Shown: positions 17,944-41,464, counted from the first letter of the stretch. The stretch: 64,000 bases of DNA from Candidatus Giovannonibacteria bacterium RIFOXYD1_FULL_48_21 (GCA_001778985.1 MFIU01000004.1:67067-131066), one strand, 5' to 3'. Numbers and translations are program-made. Notes: a model not told the origin generated them from the sequence alone.

Positions 17944-18562
17944 GGAACTGTCTCCCGTACTCTTTGGGCCAGCAACAGGACCGGAACGCGTCGTATACGA
18001 GGTTCGGCGCGGAGAGGTGGACAAAAATACAAAAATCCGCTACGATACCACTACTATCTTCCCAGGCCTGTTGGGCCGGGAGCTCCCGAAGACCTTCGGC
18101 CACTACCACAAAGGGGTAGATTTTCCGGAACTCTACGTGGTACTGGAGGGCCGAGCCTGGTATCTAATCCAGCGGCCACAGAAAGCCAACCCGAAAATCA
18201 TCGAAGAAGTCTACCTCATAGAAGCGAAAGAAAATGAAAAAACCATAATACCGCCGGGGTTTGGACATGTCAGCATCAATCCTGAAAATAAAAAATTAAT
18301 CCTGGGCAACTGGATAGGAACTGGATTTGAATACGACTATCAAACGTACGAAAACTTGCGCGGAGCCTGCTACTATCTTTTGGAATCTAAGGGCAGACAG
18401 TCTGTAAATTTCGAAAAAAATTCATATTATGAAAAAATGCCAGAATTGGCAAAAGTACGTCCGCGAGAATTTCCAAAAGAATTGGAAAATTTGGAATTTC
18501 TAACAAAACCGGAAAAATATCTAGAAATTTTGACCATCGAAAATTGCTTCAAAAGAATGTAA
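17912..18562 (+). CDS. cupin-type glucose-6-phosphate isomerase (archaeal cPGI-like)
   Basis: 'FGHYHKGVDFPELYVVLEG' and 'IIPPGFGHVSINP' match the metal-binding G-H-x-H...E-x-Y / PPGxxHxxxN motifs of the Pyrococcus-type cupin phosphoglucose isomerase. Confidence 0.6.
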   Translation: MSGKSFTRTIKELSPVLFGPATGPERVVYEVRRGEVDKNTKIRYDTTTIFPGLLGRELPKTFGHYHKGVDFPELYVVLEGRAWYLIQRPQKANPKIIEEVYLIEAKENEKTIIPPGFGHVSINPENKKLILGNWIGTGFEYDYQTYENLRGACYYLLESKGRQSVNFEKNSYYEKMPELAKVRPREFPKELENLEFLTKPEKYLEILTIENCFKRM

Positions 18563-18566
18563 CCTG

Positions 18567-18650
18567 GCCGCGGTGGCGGAACTGGTAGACGCACTAGCTT
18601 CAGGAGCTAGCGTTCGCAAGGACATGGGAGTTCGAATCTCCCCCGCGGCA
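18567..18650 (+). tRNA. tRNA-Leu(CAG), CCA not encoded
   Basis: Acceptor GCCGCGG/CCGCGGC, anticodon stem CTAGC/GCTAG with loop TTCAGGA, a long variable arm and T-arm GGGAG-TTCGAAT-CTCCC. Confidence 0.85.
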
Positions 18651-18652
18651 CT

Positions 18653-22764: not shown

Positions 22765-22877
22765 ATGAACCCCGTTAGAAAATCTCCAGATGTTTGAAAC
22801 TTCTAAAATAATTTTTTCCTTGTTAAAAAGTCTATCCAGGGCAGATAGACCCGGCTTAGATTTTCTAACGGGGTGAA
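22765..22877 (+). mobile_element. MITE-like inverted-repeat element (copy 1), inserted at the ychF start codon
   Basis: Perfect 16 bp terminal inverted repeats CCCCGTTAGAAAATCT (22770-22785) and AGATTTTCTAACGGGG (22858-22873) enclosing a 72 nt AT-rich core. They are flanked by the direct repeat TGAA (ATGAA at 22765-22769 and GTGAA at 22873-22877). Removing the element restores ATGAAAATCGGA = M-K-I-G. Confidence 0.7.
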
Positions 22878-24263: not shown

Positions 24264-24375
24264 ATGAATCCCGTTAGAAAATCTAGAAACTTTTCCATAG
24301 TCAAAAAGAGTGTTTTAATTTTAAAAAACTGGCTCAGGTCGGGTCGGTTTATTATAGATTTTCTAACGGGATGAA
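24264..24375 (+). mobile_element. MITE-like inverted-repeat element (copy 2), inserted at the ssb start codon
   Basis: Terminal inverted repeats TCCCGTTAGAAAATCT (24269-24284) and AGATTTTCTAACGGGA (24356-24371), a 71 nt AT-rich core and the flanking direct repeat ATGAA (24264-24268 and 24371-24375). It has the same orientation as copy 1 and the same internal GAAACTT motif. Confidence 0.7.
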
Positions 24376-38115: not shown

Positions 38116-39184
38116 CTACAATCCTAACTCGACTTCAATAAACTCATCAAGGGCTCCGTTCAGAACTTTTTGGACGTCAGAAATTTCAAGGCCGGTGCGG
38201 TGGTCTTTTACCAATTGGTAAGGATGCAAAACGTAGGAGCGAATCTGGTGGCCCCATTCAATTTCCCCCGCCTTAGTCTTCTTCAAAGTTTCTTTTTCTT
38301 TTTTCTGGCTCGTGACGCGCAGAGCATAGAGCTTAGAACGAAGCAGTTCTTTGGCTTTCTCGCGGTTTCGTTCCTGGGAGCGCTCTTCGGAAACATGGAC
38401 CTGAAGGCCGGTGGGCTTGTGGGTAAGGCGCACCGCGGTCTCCCGCTTGTTCACGTTCTGCCCGCCCGGGCCGCTGGAGCGGGCAAAACCAAATTCCAAA
38501 TCTTCCTCGCGAAGTTCCACTTCGGAGGGCGGAACAAACTTGGGCATCACTTCCACCAGCGCGAAAGAGGTGTGCCGGCGCTTATTGGCGTCAAACGGAG
38601 AGATGCGGACCAGACGGTGCACTCCGGATTCTTTTTCAAGATAGCCGTAAGCGTATCGGCCGCCAATCTCGGCCGTGGCGTTTTTAACTCCGTTTAGTTC
38701 GTTGAAGTGCCGATGCAGAGTTCTAAAACTCCATTTCTGCCGCGAGGCGTATTTTTCATACATTTCAAGCAAAATCCGCGCCCAGTCCTCGGCGTCGTCT
38801 CCGCCCGCGCCGGCCACGATTGTCAAAACCGCGTCACCTTTGTCGTAGGGGCCGGAGAGAAAAGCCTCGCGCTTTTTATTTTCAAAAACTCTTGAAATTT
38901 CGAGATATTTTTTTTCAAGCTCCCCCGCCTCCGCAATCGCCGCGAGCTCTTTCAAACTTCCAGCCTCCGACCTCAAATTTTCCCAGAATGAAGTAAATTC
39001 CCTTAGTTCAGAAATTTTTTGGGTGAGCTCTGCGGCGCGTTTTGGATTATTCCAGAAATTAGGATGTCGAGTTTCCTCTTCGAGTTTTAAGGCTTCTTCT
39101 TTTTTTCTGCTCAAGTCAAAGCCGGTCCGAAATCTTTCGGACCTCGGCCTCCAAAGTTTCAATTTTTTCTTTCAGAAGTTCCAT
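38116..39184 (-). CDS. prfB: peptide chain release factor 2, with programmed +1 ribosomal frameshift
   Basis: The frame-0 leader '[22 protein letters not shown]' ends at the in-frame TGA within CTT-TGA-C (minus strand, 39115-39121). The +1 frame continues '[12 protein letters not shown]...' through '[23 protein letters not shown]' (GGQ motif). Confidence 0.85.
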
Positions 39185-39217: not shown

Positions 39218-39407
39218 AATGGAGCCGATGGTCGGACTTGAACCGACAACCTATCGCTTATTCAGCCCGTTAGAAATCTACAGAGCCGGAGGCGAGATTC
39301 GAACTCGCGACCTTTGCTTTACGAAAGCACTGCTCTACCAACTGAGCTACTCCGGCATACATTTCTAACGGGCCGGGACGATTGCTCTGCCATTGAGCTA
39401 CATCGGC
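39218..39407 (-). tRNA. split or interrupted tRNA gene (intact D-arm, T-arm and acceptor, CCA encoded) carrying a ~128 nt insertion in the anticodon loop
   Basis: 5' half GCCGATG-TA-GCTC-AATGGCA-GAGC-A-ATCGT and 3' half GCGAT-AGGTT-GTCGG-TTCAAGT-CCGAC-CATCGGC-T-CCA. Between the two anticodon-stem strands lies CCCG-[GCCCGTTAGAAAT...ATTTCTAACGGGC]-TGAATAA, in which the 13 bp inverted repeats enclose a complete tRNA-Thr. Confidence 0.5.
39285..39356 (-). tRNA. tRNA-Thr(CGT), nested inside the interrupted tRNA
   Basis: GCCGGAG-TA-GCTC-AGTTGGTA-GAGC-A-GTGCT-TTCGTAA-AGCAA-AGGTC-GCGAG-TTCGAAT-CTCGC-CTCCGGC. A canonical 72-nt cloverleaf with U33, anticodon CGU and A37. Confidence 0.75.
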
Positions 39408-39413
39408 GATTAT

Positions 39414-39563
39414 TTAAATATAAGTATCTTCGCGCCGACGTTCGATTTTCAAGATAAATAAATTTCTTTTTTGATCACCAGCAGAAAGTTTCTTCAGTAT
39501 AATTTTTACCCTCTCGCGTTCTTTGGAAATCAGCTTCGAAAGCGCCTTTTCAATTCTGTCCAT
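39414..39563 (-). CDS. short ORF (~49 aa) downstream of a Phd/YefM antitoxin gene; candidate truncated toxin
   Basis: 'MDRIEKALSKLISKERERVKIILKKLSAGDQKRNLFILKIERRREDTYI'. Its start lies 6 nt after the antitoxin stop. Confidence 0.25.
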   Translation of the reverse strand: MDRIEKALSKLISKERERVKIILKKLSAGDQKRNLFILKIERRREDTYI

Positions 39564-39569
39564 GAAGCC

Positions 39570-39791
39570 TCAAATTCTAGCAAGGACTTCTCGCAGAGGA
39601 ATGCCTCCTTTTTTGATTTTCGTGAAATCTAACACGGTTTCCCAAAGCTCTGACTCCTCTTCCGGCGAGGAGATTTTAAATACCGGCCTCGAACGCCTTA
39701 CCACAATGAAAGAATCCCCTCTTTTCACGCGCTCAATGTAGCGTTCGGCATTTCCTCGAAGTTCTTTAAGCCCAATGACACTTTTAGCCAT
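39570..39791 (-). CDS. Phd/YefM-family type II antitoxin
   Basis: 'LKELRGNAERYIERVKRGDSFIVVRRSRPVFKI' matches the Phd/YefM fold signature. Confidence 0.65.
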   Translation of the reverse strand: MAKSVIGLKELRGNAERYIERVKRGDSFIVVRRSRPVFKISSPEEESELWETVLDFTKIKKGGIPLREVLARI

Positions 39792-40049
39792 AAAATAAGT
39801 TTATCTCAAGATAAACCTGGAGTCAATATTTAAAGTGGCGGAGGATCAAAAACACCCCGCAAACTTGCGGAGTGTTTTATTAAATACCAATCATCAGGCT
39901 CGGAACCATTTAGGAATAATGCAGACCTAGAAACAGTGCTTAGAGGAGAGAGATTTTTTCTCCATCCGCCATACAGCAATGAAGATATCTCACACTGCCG
40001 CCAGACCTGATCTTAAATGGCTCACGAGCCTGATAACGACTATTCAATT

Positions 40050-40076
40050 TTTTACTTCTAACCTCGTCTCGACCCA
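40050..40076 (+). repeat. repeat B (TTTTNCTTNTAACCTCGTCTCGACCC), copy 1 upstream of hicB; copy 2 at 41172-41199
   Basis: A ~25 nt near-identity. Copy 2 is followed by the complementary GGTCGAGGT and a CGCC-aga-GGCG hairpin. Confidence 0.5.
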
Positions 40077-40112
40077 TTGATTTTACGTCGGCAGCACACT
40101 ATCATAACCTAT

Positions 40113-40367
40113 ATGAACTCTTATACCTACCGAATAATAATAGAGCCGGATGAGAACAACACTTTTCACGCCTATGTTCCGGCGCTTCCTGGTTGCCATA
40201 CTTGGGGAGAAAGTTTTGAGGAAGCGCGTGGGAATATCCGCGATGCCATTGACGTTTACATCAGAAGCCTCACAAAAGACGGCGAGAAAATTCCTATAGA
40301 TCGCGGCGTAGAGATCGTGGAAACTATCTCTGCTTCCCGGCACAGAAAATCTTTTTCCCGTGTCTAA
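40113..40367 (+). CDS. hicB: HicB-family antitoxin
   Basis: 'YRIIIEPDENNTFHAYVPALPGCHTWGESFEEARGNIRDAIDVYI' (UPF0150/HicB RNase-H-like fold). Confidence 0.7.
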   Translation: MNSYTYRIIIEPDENNTFHAYVPALPGCHTWGESFEEARGNIRDAIDVYIRSLTKDGEKIPIDRGVEIVETISASRHRKSFSRV

Positions 40368-40593
40368 ACTTCCCCAGATTAAAGACCGGGAGTTGATCCG
40401 AGCGTTAAAGAAACTCGGATTTTTTGAGCATCCGGAACGCGGCAGTTCTCATTTGGTCTTTGCACATCAAGACGGAAGACGCGCCACCGTGTCTCGCCAT
40501 CCAGGCAAAAACATTCCCAGAGGCACTCTCCGCGCCATCATGCGCGACATCAATATTTCTCCTCAAGAATTCACCAGACTTTTGAAGCAGTAA
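40360..40593 (+). CDS. hicA: HicA-family toxin (mRNA interferase)
   Basis: 'ALKKLGFFEHPERGSSHLVFAHQDGRRATVSRHPGKNIPRGTLRAIMRDI'. Overlaps hicB by 8 nt. Confidence 0.7.
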   Translation: MSKLPQIKDRELIRALKKLGFFEHPERGSSHLVFAHQDGRRATVSRHPGKNIPRGTLRAIMRDINISPQEFTRLLKQ

Positions 40594-40614
40594 TTTTTCT
40601 CAAAGAACTCTCAG
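40592..40614 (+). repeat. repeat A (TAATTTTTCTCAAAGAACTNTC), copy 1, abutting the hicA stop codon; copy 2 at 41116-41138 abuts the DUF2283 stop
   Basis: A 22/23 nt identity between 40592-40614 and 41116-41138, each beginning at or next to a stop codon. Copy 1 is tandemly half-duplicated at 40626-40645. Confidence 0.5.
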
Positions 40615-40886
40615 AGTCCTCGAGATTTCTCAAGAACTCAATCGAGTGGGGGAAGATATTGAGTCCTCCCCCCTCTAAAGTTTGAGATTGATTTCCTTCA
40701 CTACACTGTTATATTATGGGTACAGGCATGGAAAGATTCAGCTCACCCTTTGGAATTATAGAACTGACTTCTGATTTTTTATTCACCTGTCCCGGGCAAG
40801 AAATATCTCGCCATAGTCGTAAAGATAAACCGCCGAAATTTTATCCTAACCGCTTACGTTACCAATAAAATTCAACATCTGCCGCT

Positions 40887-41114
40887 ATGAAACTCCATTA
40901 TTATTACGACCGAGAAGCAGACGTACTCTATTTCTCGCAAGGGAAGCCGTCCCGGAAAGACATCTCTGAAGAAGCGTCTGACGACGTGGTGCTTCGTCTT
41001 GACCCCAGAACCAAAAAGGTAAAAGGATTTACTATCCTCAATTTCGCCAAACGAGGCGCGAAGAAATACGCGCCGCTCTCGTTGCCTATCAAAGCCGAAC
41101 TCTTGCCGGCTTGA
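40887..41114 (+). CDS. DUF2283-family small protein
   Basis: 'YYYDREADVLYFSQGKP...' is the characteristic DUF2283 N-terminus. Confidence 0.5.
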   Translation: MKLHYYYDREADVLYFSQGKPSRKDISEEASDDVVLRLDPRTKKVKGFTILNFAKRGAKKYAPLSLPIKAELLPA

Positions 41115-41390
41115 CTTAATTTTTCTCAAAGAACTTTCGACTCGTTTTTGCGAATCGAGATGAGATTACAAGTTTTTGCTTTTAACCTCGTCTCGACCCG
41201 CCCGCCAGAGGCGGGTAAATAGGTCGAGGTCACTCATATATATTTTAAGATTCGCCTTGGAACTCTCTCCTCTAGAGTTGGAGAGAATTATGGAGATGAG
41301 TTCTTGAGTGAACCTGCGGGCCAATATATATTATTTGATTCCTCATTAAAAAGAAAATTCCGCGCGCGCCCACTTGTTGACTTTTCCTAA

Positions 41391-41464
41391 TGGTGCGGGA
41401 TACGAGAATTGAACTCGTGTCTCTTGCTTGGGAAGCAAGCATATTACCACTATACTAATCCCGC
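41391..41464 (-). tRNA. tRNA-Gly(CCC), CCA encoded
   Basis: Acceptor GCGGGAT/ATCCCGC, anticodon stem CTTGC/GCAAG with loop TTCCCAA, T-arm ACGAG-TTCAATT-CTCGT, discriminator A and CCA. Confidence 0.8.

What the first reader, a model, noticed from the sequence alone, without database searches (positions are those of the whole stretch)
39218..39407. A tRNA gene split in its anticodon loop by an inverted-repeat-bounded insert that contains a complete tRNA-Thr(CGT)
On the minus strand an outer tRNA has a canonical 5' half (acceptor, D-arm, 5' anticodon-stem strand ATCGT) and 3' half (GCGAT, variable loop, T-arm, acceptor, discriminator, encoded CCA). Between the anticodon-stem strands lies CCCG-[GCCCGTTAGAAAT ... 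ATTTCTAACGGGC]-TGAATAA. The 13 bp inverted repeat belongs to the CCCGTTAGAAA(A)TCT family of the two MITE-like elements at 22.8 and 24.3 kb. Inside the repeat sits a perfectly canonical 72-nt tRNA-Thr(CGU). This tRNA-within-a-tRNA arrangement has several possible explanations. It could be an intron-like insert whose excision requires the repeat stem. It could be a MITE carrying a tRNA cargo that disrupted a tRNA gene. Or RNase P/Z processing of the inner tRNA could liberate halves that are later joined. The splice junction, and hence the outer anticodon, cannot be read unambiguously. The candidates are CGG or GAA depending on the junction. The internal lengths of all three repeat-bounded units (71, 72 and 80 nt) are close to tRNA length.
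Basis: seen in the sequence. Interest (0 to 1): 0.82.

Follow-up and report, generated by a model that had tools for sequence, protein, structure and literature searches.

The report
Mobile tRNA cassette nested inside tRNA
A resident tRNA-Thr gene of a candidate-phyla-radiation bacterium has been split in its anticodon by a 113-base inverted-repeat mobile cassette that carries its own complete tRNA-Thr, and this gene-inside-its-own-kind arrangement recurs, sometimes three to five layers deep, in many uncultivated bacteria.

Summary
On the minus strand, 39407-39220 is a complete tRNA-Thr body. It is interrupted between anticodon positions 35 and 36 by G-CCCGTTAGAAAT...ATTTCTAACGGG-C plus TGAA, and the insert holds an intact tRNA-Thr(CGU) (Rfam 69.9 bits).

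The outer gene is the resident one. The two closest relatives (RF2 92% and 76% identical) carry the same tRNA uninterrupted, 96-97% identical, with loop TTCGTAA. So the outer anticodon was CGU, not CGG or GAA.

The repeat belongs to a cross-phylum MITE-like superfamily. Ordinary copies have 4-bp TNNA target duplications (111 of 184). Two copies in this window sit exactly on the ychF and ssb start codons.

Seventy repeat-bounded units carry a complete tRNA. Nearly all lie inside a tRNA of the same amino acid (39 of 45 by nearest neighbour). All recognisable outers are co-oriented with the inner gene (45 of 45), and none has a target duplication (0 of 66). Near-identical cassettes sit in divergent outer genes, Thr lineages swap inner and outer roles, and 3-5-level Russian-doll nests exist.

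Best reading: a mobile tRNA cassette disrupted the resident cognate gene and replaces its function; the outer gene is a young relic. Splicing of the outer tRNA is unlikely but not excluded. I found no prior description.

The parts
39374..39407 (-). Outer (resident) tRNA-Thr, positions 1-35: acceptor 5' strand, D arm, anticodon-stem 5' strand ATCGT, then CCCG in place of the ancestral TTCG (positions 32-35).
   Evidence: Sequence. ARAGORN after removal of the insert. Uninterrupted orthologues L243 and L245 are 96-97% identical.
39361..39373 (-). Left terminal inverted repeat, G+CCCGTTAGAAAT.
   Evidence: the repeat finder I1. Pattern hits. Family-wide conservation.
39284..39356 (-). Inner (cargo) tRNA-Thr(CGU). 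Canonical cloverleaf, no encoded CCA, with a 4-nt leader and a 6-nt trailer inside the repeat helix.
   Evidence: ARAGORN. Rfam RF00005 69.9 bits. Closest to the outer genes of L230 and L238 (0.84) and to the plain resident Thr(CGU) of L244 and L246 (0.78-0.79).
39265..39277 (-). Right terminal inverted repeat, ATTTCTAACGGG+C.
39261..39264 (-). TGAA, four extra bases carried in with the cassette. They are absent from the empty site and sit where a target-site duplication would be, but they are not a copy of positions 32-35.
   Evidence: Filled versus empty site comparison. Flank statistics.
39220..39260 (-). Outer tRNA-Thr, positions 36-76: TAA, anticodon-stem 3' strand GCGAT, variable loop, T arm, acceptor 3' strand, discriminator U, encoded CCA.
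39423..39452 (-). Promoter-like site TTGAAA-18-GATACT, ending 16 nt upstream of the outer tRNA. It is the only candidate promoter for both tRNAs, because the cassette has no room for its own.
   Evidence: Consensus scan: 1 site found against 0.7 expected. Weak evidence.
22766..22877 (.). Ordinary copy of the same repeat family: TGAA | C-CCCGTTAGAAA...TTTCTAACGGG-G | TGAA. The last repeat base plus the duplicated TG form the GTG start codon of ychF (22873).
   Evidence: Pfam YchF-GTPase_C and MMR_HSR1.
24265..24375 (.). Ordinary copy: TGAA | T-CCCG...CGGG-A | TGAA, lying between rpsF and ssb. The ATG of ssb (24371) is the last repeat base plus the duplicated TG.
   Evidence: Pfam SSB and Ribosomal_S6.

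Best explanation
The 113 bases at 39373-39261 are a small non-coding mobile cassette. It consists of terminal inverted repeats of the CCCGTTAGAAA family, a 4-nt tail, and a complete tRNA-Thr(CGU) gene as cargo. It inserted between anticodon positions 35 and 36 of the resident tRNA-Thr(CGU) gene upstream of prfB.

Shown:
- The resident gene exists uninterrupted in the closest relatives.
- The cassette's repeat defines a transposon-like family with target-site duplications.
- tRNA-bearing cassettes are found almost only inside tRNA genes of the same amino acid, always in the same orientation.
- Near-identical cassettes occur in divergent host tRNA genes, and they can be stacked.

Inferred:
- Both tRNAs are transcribed from the resident promoter as one roughly 190-nt precursor. 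In it, the repeat arms form a 15-bp helix that extends the outer anticodon stem and presents the inner tRNA at its tip.
- RNase P and 3' processing (possibly RNase III acting on the helix) release the inner tRNA, which then supplies Thr(CGU) decoding.
- The outer halves are not rejoined. They are a young, still intact-looking relic.
- The restriction to cognate genes and to one orientation arises because disrupting a single-copy tRNA gene is tolerated only when the cargo replaces it and can use its promoter. A real targeting (homing) mechanism may also contribute.
- The position 35|36 fits the family's preferred target TTCA/TTTA, which matches positions 32-35 (U32 U33 C/U34 N35) of these anticodon loops.
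For: 1. Empty site. L243 (RF2 92% identical) and L245 (76%) carry plain tRNA-Thr(CGU) genes 96% and 97% identical to the window's outer gene, with loop TTCGTAA, upstream of prfB-ftsE-ftsX.

2. Mobile family. More than 120 genome loci in many phyla hold the repeat pair. Of 184 ordinary copies, 111 have an exact 4-bp TNNA duplication, and the outermost repeat bases are complementary in 173.

3. Recurrence of nesting.
- 70 repeat-bounded units hold a complete tRNA.
- 45 have a recognisable outer tRNA once the insert is removed, all on the same strand as the inner one.
- The outer gene's nearest neighbour is a tRNA of the inner's amino acid in 39 of 45.
- Only one of the 70 (the Met unit L221) looks un-nested, judged by eye from the flank listings.

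4. Mobility relative to the host gene.
- In 16 of 18 close pairs, inner cassettes 0.89-1.00 identical sit in outer genes only 0.55-0.84 identical.
- The window's outer lineage is the inner one in L158 and L230, and the reverse also holds.
- Inner and outer genes do not co-diverge.
- Nests 3-5 levels deep occur in L181, L129, L237 and L179.

5. The outer gene is dispensable elsewhere. 25 of 70 outer genes are truncated, decayed or further interrupted, including in close relatives of intact ones (L190 versus L155 and L176).

6. In the window, positions 31-33 differ from the empty site (CTT to TCC), so U33 is lost.

7. No intron family or motif fits.
Against: - Apart from positions 31-33, the outer gene is a flawless tRNA: 21 of 21 stem pairs, a G18 G19 D loop, a TTCAAGT T loop and an encoded CCA. 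That could mean constraint rather than youth.
- In several classes all 4+3 loop bases of the correct cognate anticodon are retained on either side of the insert (Leu TTCA|GGA, Thr TTCG|TAA, Gly TTGC|CAA).
- Nested cassettes never show the target duplication that ordinary copies have (0 of 66). They therefore did not arrive by the family's standard transposition, or their flanks were remodelled. The insertion mechanism is unknown.
- No autonomous element or transposase with these repeats was found.
- No RNA data are available.
- Whether the genome has another Thr(CGU) gene could not be checked.
Confidence: 0.65

Rival explanations
1. Intron-like arrangement in which both tRNAs are functional. 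The inner tRNA is cut out by RNase P and RNase Z, or the long helix is cut by a double-strand-specific or unknown endonuclease. The outer halves, held together by the repeat helix and the acceptor stem, are then trimmed and ligated (for example by an RtcB-type ligase) into a decoding tRNA-Thr.
For: - The outer cloverleaf is perfect, and the predicted fold keeps the two halves in register.
- The loop bases are split 4+3 at 35|36, and the cognate anticodon is still readable in five classes.
- 35/36 is also the site of self-splicing group I introns in Patescibacteria tRNAs (PMC13011429).
- The outermost repeat pair co-varies: G-C in the window and L229, C-G in L158.
Against: - There is no bulge-helix-bulge motif (an internal loop of 2 x 5 nt instead).
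- There is no ribozyme core, and Rfam finds nothing else even at E < 5.
- Joining at 35|36 gives CCCGUAA with C33. The extra TGAA would also have to be removed.
- In the Ala, Val and Pro(UGG) classes no 7-nt cognate loop can be rebuilt.
- Outer halves are deleted in many genomes.
- The inner and outer genes have the same anticodon, so the outer is redundant.
- The outer layers of multi-level nests cannot all be spliced.
Confidence: 0.12
2. The outer tRNA no longer decodes but is kept as a tRNA-shaped scaffold. It supplies the promoter, defined 5' and 3' ends (RNase P, CCA) and nuclease protection for the precursor that delivers the inner tRNA. The engineered 'tRNA scaffold', in which an RNA is inserted in place of an anticodon loop, works the same way.
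For: - 45 of 70 outer genes keep clean cloverleaves although their loops are destroyed.
- Inner and outer are always co-oriented.
- The cassette has only 4-5 nt of leader and no room for a promoter.
- The one promoter-like site lies upstream of the outer gene.
- A continuous helix runs from the outer anticodon stem to the inner acceptor stem. In the Leu and some Thr units the repeat abuts the inner acceptor stem directly.
Against: - Intact outer genes are equally well explained by recent insertion into functional genes. In this window the closest relative still has the empty site.
- Many lineages have lost one outer half without losing the inner tRNA.
- The engineered analogy comes from memory, not from a test.
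Confidence: 0.18
3. Chance resemblance or assembly chimera: the two flanks only look like tRNA halves, or the assembler joined repeats wrongly.
For: None beyond the general risk with repeats in metagenome assemblies.
Against: - The locus is identical in five independent assemblies, including a 292-kb scaffold.
- The flanks are 96-97% identical to an intact orthologous tRNA.
- The fold has z = -6.3.
- There are dozens of independent parallel cases.
Confidence: 0.01

Closest known systems
Bacterial MITEs such as Correia/NEMIS elements of Neisseria, RUP, ERIC and Nezha (from established knowledge)
   Same: - About 100-150 bp and non-coding.
- Terminal inverted repeats that form a long hairpin when transcribed.
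- Short target-site duplication and many copies per genome.
- Often co-transcribed with neighbouring genes.
Ordinary copies of this family behave this way.
   Different: - The 11-nt repeat core is conserved across several phyla.
- The duplication is TNNA.
- Copies sit exactly on start codons.
- A subfamily carries whole tRNA genes, lies inside cognate tRNA genes, lacks the duplication (0 of 66) and can be nested several layers deep.
- No autonomous partner is known.
Integrative elements (phages, ICEs with tyrosine integrases) that insert into tRNA genes and carry a copy of the displaced tRNA segment (from established knowledge)
   Same: Insertion into a tRNA gene, often at the anticodon loop, is made harmless because the incoming DNA restores the tRNA function.
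   Different: - Those elements are kilobases long and encode an integrase.
- They rebuild the same gene by fusion at attL and leave a direct repeat of the 3' part.
- Here a 113-nt cassette brings a whole independent tRNA gene and leaves the host gene split. No integrase and no direct repeat are seen.
Group I introns in bacterial tRNA anticodon loops, including the 35/36 introns of Patescibacteria (PMC13011429)
   Same: They interrupt a bacterial tRNA anticodon loop. 35/36 is used in the same phylum, and standard tRNA finders miss the host gene.
   Different: - There is no catalytic core: only 113 nt, and no Rfam match.
- The insert is a repeat-bounded tRNA gene.
- No evidence of splicing.
Archaeal bulge-helix-bulge introns, split tRNAs and tri-split tRNAs (from established knowledge)
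   Same: tRNA halves are held together by a helix formed from flanking complementary sequence, and the interruption lies in or near the anticodon loop.
   Different: - The host is bacterial (class A RNase P in the window).
- No BHB motif.
- The intervening sequence is itself a tRNA gene.
- The halves are probably not joined.

Membership tests
MITE (miniature inverted-repeat transposable element) | Terminal inverted repeats | tested here: met
   13 nt perfect, or 16 nt at 94%. The same core is found in more than 230 loci.
MITE (miniature inverted-repeat transposable element) | Target-site duplication flanking the element | tested here: not met
   This copy has CCCG on the left and TGAA on the right, and the empty site is TTCG|TAA. 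Nested copies overall: 0 of 66. Ordinary family members do meet the feature: 111 of 184 exact, including both other copies in the window.
MITE (miniature inverted-repeat transposable element) | Small size, no transposase gene, several copies in one genome | tested here: met
   113 nt with a tRNA as the only content. Three copies lie in this 64-kb window.
MITE (miniature inverted-repeat transposable element) | An autonomous element with the same repeats that supplies the transposase | tested here: inconclusive
   In about 240 loci, repeat pairs show no peak at 0.3-4 kb spacing, and the long pairs hold no transposase-like ORF. There were no hits in viral contigs or in PLSDB plasmids. Whole genomes could not be searched.
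Functional elongator tRNA (the outer gene) | Cloverleaf with conserved D and T loop bases | tested here: met
   ARAGORN after removal of the insert, 21 pairs. MFE fold. 96-97% identical to intact orthologues.
Functional elongator tRNA (the outer gene) | Continuous 7-nt anticodon loop with U33 and a purine at 37 | tested here: not met
   The loop is split by 113 nt. Joining at 35|36 gives CCCGUAA with C33, and no other junction gives a Thr anticodon with U33.
Bulge-helix-bulge (archaeal-type) tRNA intron | Two 3-nt bulges separated by a 4-bp helix at the exon-intron boundaries | tested here: not met
   The predicted structure has an asymmetric internal loop (2 nt on the 5' side, 5 nt on the 3' side) between the anticodon stem and a 15-bp helix. 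The host is bacterial.
Group I intron | Conserved catalytic core (P3-P9), detectable by covariance model | tested here: not met
   No Rfam match at gathering score or at E < 5 apart from the inner tRNA. The insert is only 113 nt.
tRNA-targeting integrative element (tyrosine integrase) | Integrase gene and a direct repeat of the tRNA 3' segment at the far end | tested here: not met
   The whole insert is 113 nt. The neighbours are prfB, ftsE, ftsX and small toxin-antitoxin genes. There is no duplicated 3' segment.

The most novel reading that the evidence does not exclude
These are selfish, homing tRNA-gene cassettes: a class of mobile element whose cargo is a tRNA and whose target is the anticodon loop of the resident gene for the same tRNA.

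Each invasion kills the resident copy and makes the invader indispensable, which is addiction by gene replacement. Rival cassettes invade one another in turn, leaving Russian-doll tRNA genes. Over time the tRNA genes of candidate-phyla-radiation bacteria are replaced horizontally.

Targeting may use the match between the element's preferred TTCA/TTTA target and positions 32-35 of the loop, or an interaction between the cargo and target anticodon hairpins.
Probability: 0.4. Interest if true: 0.92.

Novelty: new variant of a known kind. Interest (0 to 1): 0.82.

Why it matters
If the reading holds, it has several consequences.

- **Evolution.** tRNA genes in streamlined uncultivated bacteria are not simply inherited. 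They can be overwritten by mobile copies from other lineages. This is a new route of horizontal replacement for a core translation component, and a new way for a tiny element to make itself essential.
- **Annotation.** It explains why standard tRNA finders report odd or 'missing' tRNAs in these genomes, and why tRNA-length inverted-repeat elements sit on start codons and promoters.
- **Experimental use.** It gives a natural, testable counterpart of the engineered tRNA scaffold.
- **A possible surprise.** If the outer tRNAs turned out to be rejoined, this would be the first protein-dependent tRNA splicing system in bacteria.

Tried and rejected
- **ARAGORN intron modes.** Run on the native sequence, they gave only a forced, poor 'Gln' model with a 91-nt intron. 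Rejected.
- **BHB motif and group I intron.** Rejected from the fold and from Rfam.
- **IS200/IS605-type reading** (a constant carried end and a variable target). In the largest ordinary subfamily the flanks behave as true duplications. Rejected for ordinary copies.
- **6-bp duplication.** Only about half of the copies match at the outer positions, so this is a target preference R-TNNA-Y and not a duplication.
- **Single ancient insertion with co-divergence.** There is no inner/outer correlation and the lineages swap roles. Rejected, though the Mantel test on roughly 70-nt genes has little power.
- **Search for an autonomous element or transposase.** Nothing found.
- **Viral contigs and plasmids as vectors.** No matches.
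- **Literature searches** by sequence and by concept. Nothing relevant beyond the Patescibacteria group I intron paper.
- **A uniform rule for the non-duplicated flanks.** I tried a 2-bp duplication, conservative recombination with a shared overlap, an inverted copy of positions 32-35, and carry-over from a previous host. None fits all classes. Unresolved.
- **The window's plain tRNA-Leu(CAG) as an 'empty site' for the nested Leu loci.** It is syntenic but resembles their inner genes more than their outer genes. It is therefore not a simple empty site.

Full report
**1. What is in the sequence**

Read on the minus strand, 39407-39220 consists of these parts in order:
- the first 35 positions of a tRNA (GCCGATG TA GCTC AATGGCA GAGC A ATCGT CCCG);
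- G+CCCGTTAGAAAT, then GTAT;
- a complete tRNA-Thr(CGU) at 39356-39284;
- CTGTAG, then ATTTCTAACGGG+C;
- TGAA;
- the remaining positions 36-76 of the first tRNA (TAA GCGAT AGGTT GTCGG TTCAAGT CCGAC CATCGGC T CCA).

ARAGORN and Rfam see only the inner gene (69.9 bits). When the insert is deleted, ARAGORN calls an outer tRNA at every junction tried, with 21 paired positions in the best model.

Folded as one RNA, the 193 nt adopt exactly an outer cloverleaf, a 15-bp helix made by the repeat arms, and an inner cloverleaf. The energy is -82.9 kcal/mol, z = -6.3, and none of 200 shuffles folds as well.

The locus is base-for-base identical in five independent assemblies.

**2. The outer gene is the resident tRNA-Thr(CGU), and the closest relatives have the empty site**

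The neighbouring genes are prfB (with its CTT TGA C frameshift site), ftsE and ftsX. The nearest named RF2 homologues are from Candidatus Giovannonibacteria at about 70% identity. Together with the class A RNase P, this places the window in Parcubacteria/Patescibacteria.

I fetched the prfB loci of the closest RF2 homologues.
- L243 (RF2 92% identical) and L245 (76%) carry an uninterrupted tRNA-Thr(CGU) upstream of prfB. These genes are 96% and 97% identical to the window's outer gene, and their anticodon loop is TTCGTAA.
- The outer gene is therefore the ancestral resident, and its anticodon was CGU. The insert arrived in the window's lineage.
- Empty site: ...AATCGC TTCG|TAA GCGAT....
- Filled site: ...AATCGT CCCG [G-repeat...repeat-C TGAA] TAA GCGAT....
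- The filled site thus has 113 inserted bases plus three transitions confined to positions 31-33. These remove the universal U33. TGAA, and probably CCCG, came in with the cassette.
- L244 and L246 (75% and 70%) have, at the same place, a plain Thr(CGU) of the other lineage, the one that resembles the window's inner gene (0.78-0.79).

**3. The repeat defines a widespread transposon-like family**

The hosts are Patescibacteria, Omnitrophota, Planctomycetota, Desulfobacterota, Nitrospirota and others.
- 184 copies have no tRNA inside. Their flanks follow R-TNNA-Y | CCCG...CGGG | R-TNNA-Y.
- The 4-bp duplication is exact in 111 copies and has at most one mismatch in 131. The outermost repeat bases are complementary in 173.
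- The commonest target tetranucleotides are TTTA, TTCA, TAAA and TGAA.
- Subfamilies with conserved interiors exist.
- Many copies sit exactly on start codons or on TTGAC boxes.
- Both other copies in this window do so. Each is flanked by a TGAA duplication. The last repeat base plus TG forms the GTG of ychF (22873) and the ATG of ssb (24371). The ssb copy lies inside the rpsF-ssb operon.
- No autonomous partner was found, and there were no matches in viral contigs or plasmids.
- From memory, CCC-type ends and a 4-bp T..A duplication recall IS1380 and piggyBac-like elements. This was not tested.

**4. A tRNA inside a tRNA is a recurrent, cognate-restricted architecture**

In the genome scan, one further repeat pair besides the window's own (L043) enclosed a tRNA, and only those two units had an outer tRNA spanning the junction. 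A metagenome scan that required a T-loop inside the repeat pair returned 118 loci. Over all loci, 70 units hold a complete tRNA:
- Ala CGC is the most frequent.
- The others are Pro UGG/CGG, Leu CAG, Val GAC/CAC/UAC, Thr CGU/UGU, Gly CCC, Ser UGA/CGA and one Met.

Properties of the nested units:
- In 45 of them ARAGORN recognises an outer tRNA once the insert is removed. It is always on the same strand as the inner gene, 45 to 0.
- The outer gene's nearest neighbour among 184 reference tRNAs has the inner's amino acid in 39 of 45.
- Identity marks agree by eye: G3:U70 in Ala outer genes, C1:G72 in Pro, long variable arms in Leu and Ser.
- Where the loop bases can be read, they are split 4+3 at 35|36 and spell the same or a closely related anticodon. 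Examples are Leu TTCA|GGA, Thr TTCG|TAA and TTTG|TAA, Pro TTCG|GGT and Gly TTGC|CAA.
- A few inserts lie elsewhere: the D loop in L228, position 26/27 in L237 and position 31/32 in L211.
- Judged by eye from their flanks, nearly all of the 25 units without a callable outer gene still show class-specific junctions beside truncated, decayed or doubly interrupted halves. Only the Met unit looks un-nested.
- Nested units never have a target duplication: 0 of 66, against 111 of 184 for ordinary copies.
- Instead, one flank is TTCA/TTTA-like and the other is CRRG-like. The same pair (TTCA...CAAG, or its mirror CTTG...TGAA) appears in the Ala, Leu and Pro classes. Part of the flank therefore travels with the cassette.

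**5. The cassettes move relative to their hosts**

- In 16 of 18 close pairs, inner cassettes that are 0.89-1.00 identical lie in outer genes only 0.55-0.84 identical. Examples are L179/L203 (1.00 against 0.67), L169/L182 (0.97 against 0.68) and L204/L227 (1.00 against 0.84).
- Inner-inner identity exceeds outer-outer identity in every class, and inner and outer distances are uncorrelated.
- The two Thr(CGU) lineages swap roles. The window's outer gene is closest to the inner genes of L158 and L230 (0.84, 0.82). The window's inner gene is closest to the outer genes of L230 and L238 (0.84).
- Several loci are Russian dolls:
  - L181 has three Pro(CGG) genes, one inside the other, each layer bounded by the repeat.
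  - L237 (Leu) and L179 (Pro) have three layers.
  - L129 has five successive Ala 5' halves, each followed by a left repeat, then one intact tRNA-Ala, then two right repeats with their 3' halves.
  - In L129 two cassette types, with identical spacers, are each used twice.
- These facts are hard to explain except by repeated insertion of tRNA-bearing cassettes into the currently intact cognate gene.

**6. How it most likely works here**

Shown:
- A cassette with a Thr(CGU) cargo of foreign lineage sits at 35|36 of the resident Thr(CGU) gene.
- The resident loop is destroyed and U33 is lost.
- The cassette has only a 4-nt leader and no room for a promoter.
- The one promoter-like site (TTGAAA-18-GATACT) lies just upstream of the outer gene (weak evidence).

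Inferred:
- Both tRNAs are made as one precursor. The inner tRNA is released by the normal tRNA end-processing enzymes from the tip of the repeat helix, and it decodes ACG.
- The outer halves are a relic.
- Cognate identity and co-orientation are what selection would leave. Knocking out a single-copy tRNA is survivable only if the cargo is the same isoacceptor and can use the host promoter.
- The preferred targets TTCA and TTTA are exactly, or nearly, positions 32-35 of loops with C34 or U34. This would explain the site and the excess of C34 isoacceptors.
- Two observations suggest more than random insertion plus selection, and point to some form of targeting: un-nested tRNA cassettes are nearly absent, and deep nests exist. 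I could not identify the mechanism.
- The missing duplication shows that it differs from the way ordinary copies insert.

**7. What argues the other way**

- The window's outer gene is otherwise perfect, and many other outer genes are too. That fits recent insertion, since the closest relative is still empty.
- It also fits retention as a processing scaffold or, less likely, splicing.
- Splicing is disfavoured for these reasons:
  - there is no BHB motif and no ribozyme core;
  - the loop would have C33, and TGAA would also have to be removed;
  - some loops cannot be rebuilt, namely those of the Ala, Val and Pro(UGG) classes;
  - the inner and outer genes have redundant anticodons;
  - some outer halves are deleted;
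  - the outer layers of multi-level nests cannot all be spliced.
- Only RNA data can settle it.

**8. Comparison with what is known, and novelty**

- The element is MITE-like, but this copy fails the target-duplication criterion.
- It works like the tRNA-targeting integrative elements that restore the gene they interrupt, but it is 113 nt long, has no integrase, and brings a whole gene.
- It occupies the same 35/36 site as the Patescibacteria group I introns (PMC13011429) but is not a ribozyme.
- It looks like an archaeal split tRNA but lacks the motif and the enzymes.
- Full-text searches by sequence and by concept found no description of repeat-bounded tRNA cassettes nested in cognate tRNA genes.
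- I rate it a new variant of a known kind: a cargo-carrying MITE that replaces its target gene. If cognate homing is real, it would be a new category of selfish element.

Noticed in passing
window 22766-22877 and 24265-24375: Two ordinary copies of the same repeat family sit exactly on the start codons of ychF and ssb. Each has a TGAA duplication, and the last repeat base completes a GTG or ATG. The ssb copy lies inside the rpsF-ssb operon, so it must be co-transcribed. Its hairpin may bring an upstream ribosome-binding site next to the start codon, or act as a processing site.
   Followed up: partly
L129 3573-3951; L181 1354-1568; L237 4731-4944; L179 110-261: Russian-doll tRNA genes with three to five layers of the same amino-acid identity, each layer bounded by the CCCGTTAGAAA repeat. 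In L129 two cassette types with identical spacers each occur twice.
   Followed up: partly
L135, L195, L203, L208, L219, L224 (5' halves of outer tRNAs); also upstream of the outer gene in L230: A second kind of insertion ending in ...CTACGGGGCAGGC interrupts the D-arm region of several outer tRNAs. L198 and L214 have yet another structured insert (…GGTT[TC]CCGCTCATTCATTT[CT]TATGAATGA[GA]CGAGGCTCGCCC) directly after the right repeat. Their nature was not determined.
   Followed up: no
window 39115-39121 (minus strand); prfB ATG at 39184: prfB has the classical +1 programmed frameshift site CTT TGA C, 22 codons into the gene. The long ORF at 38116-39162 is the downstream frame.
   Followed up: partly
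window 18567-18651 and 18494-18505: The window's plain tRNA-Leu(CAG) has loop TTCAGGA. It is syntenic with nested Leu loci in relatives (L125, L185, L219, L224, L234, L237) but resembles their inner genes more than their outer genes. About 60 nt upstream lies GGAATTTCTAAC, a possible decayed repeat arm. This fits a cycle of invasion, loss of the outer relic, and a plain gene again.
   Followed up: partly
L243, L245, L246 versus window 39220-41464: In relatives, tRNA-Gly(CCC) directly abuts tRNA-Thr(CGU) upstream of prfB. In the window the two are 2 kb apart, with small toxin-antitoxin-type genes (HicA/HicB, Phd/YefM-like) between them. L243 has a ParE toxin module between the tRNA and prfB. 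This spot seems to collect small mobile modules.
   Followed up: no
L122-L236 (for example L136, L149, L150, L215): A subfamily of the same repeat family, mostly in Desulfobacterota-type contigs, has a conserved roughly 90-nt interior. The interior holds three hairpins (…GCCCCGCTGCTCTGCAGCGGGG…GGCGGGGTTTAATGCCCCGC…GAGTCGCAACGACT…), and the usual duplication is TTTA. It may be a structured RNA.
   Followed up: no
all nested units: Only 4 of 70 inner tRNAs have an encoded CCA, against 20 of 45 outer tRNAs. Cargo tRNAs are a distinct population that ends at the discriminator base.
   Followed up: partly
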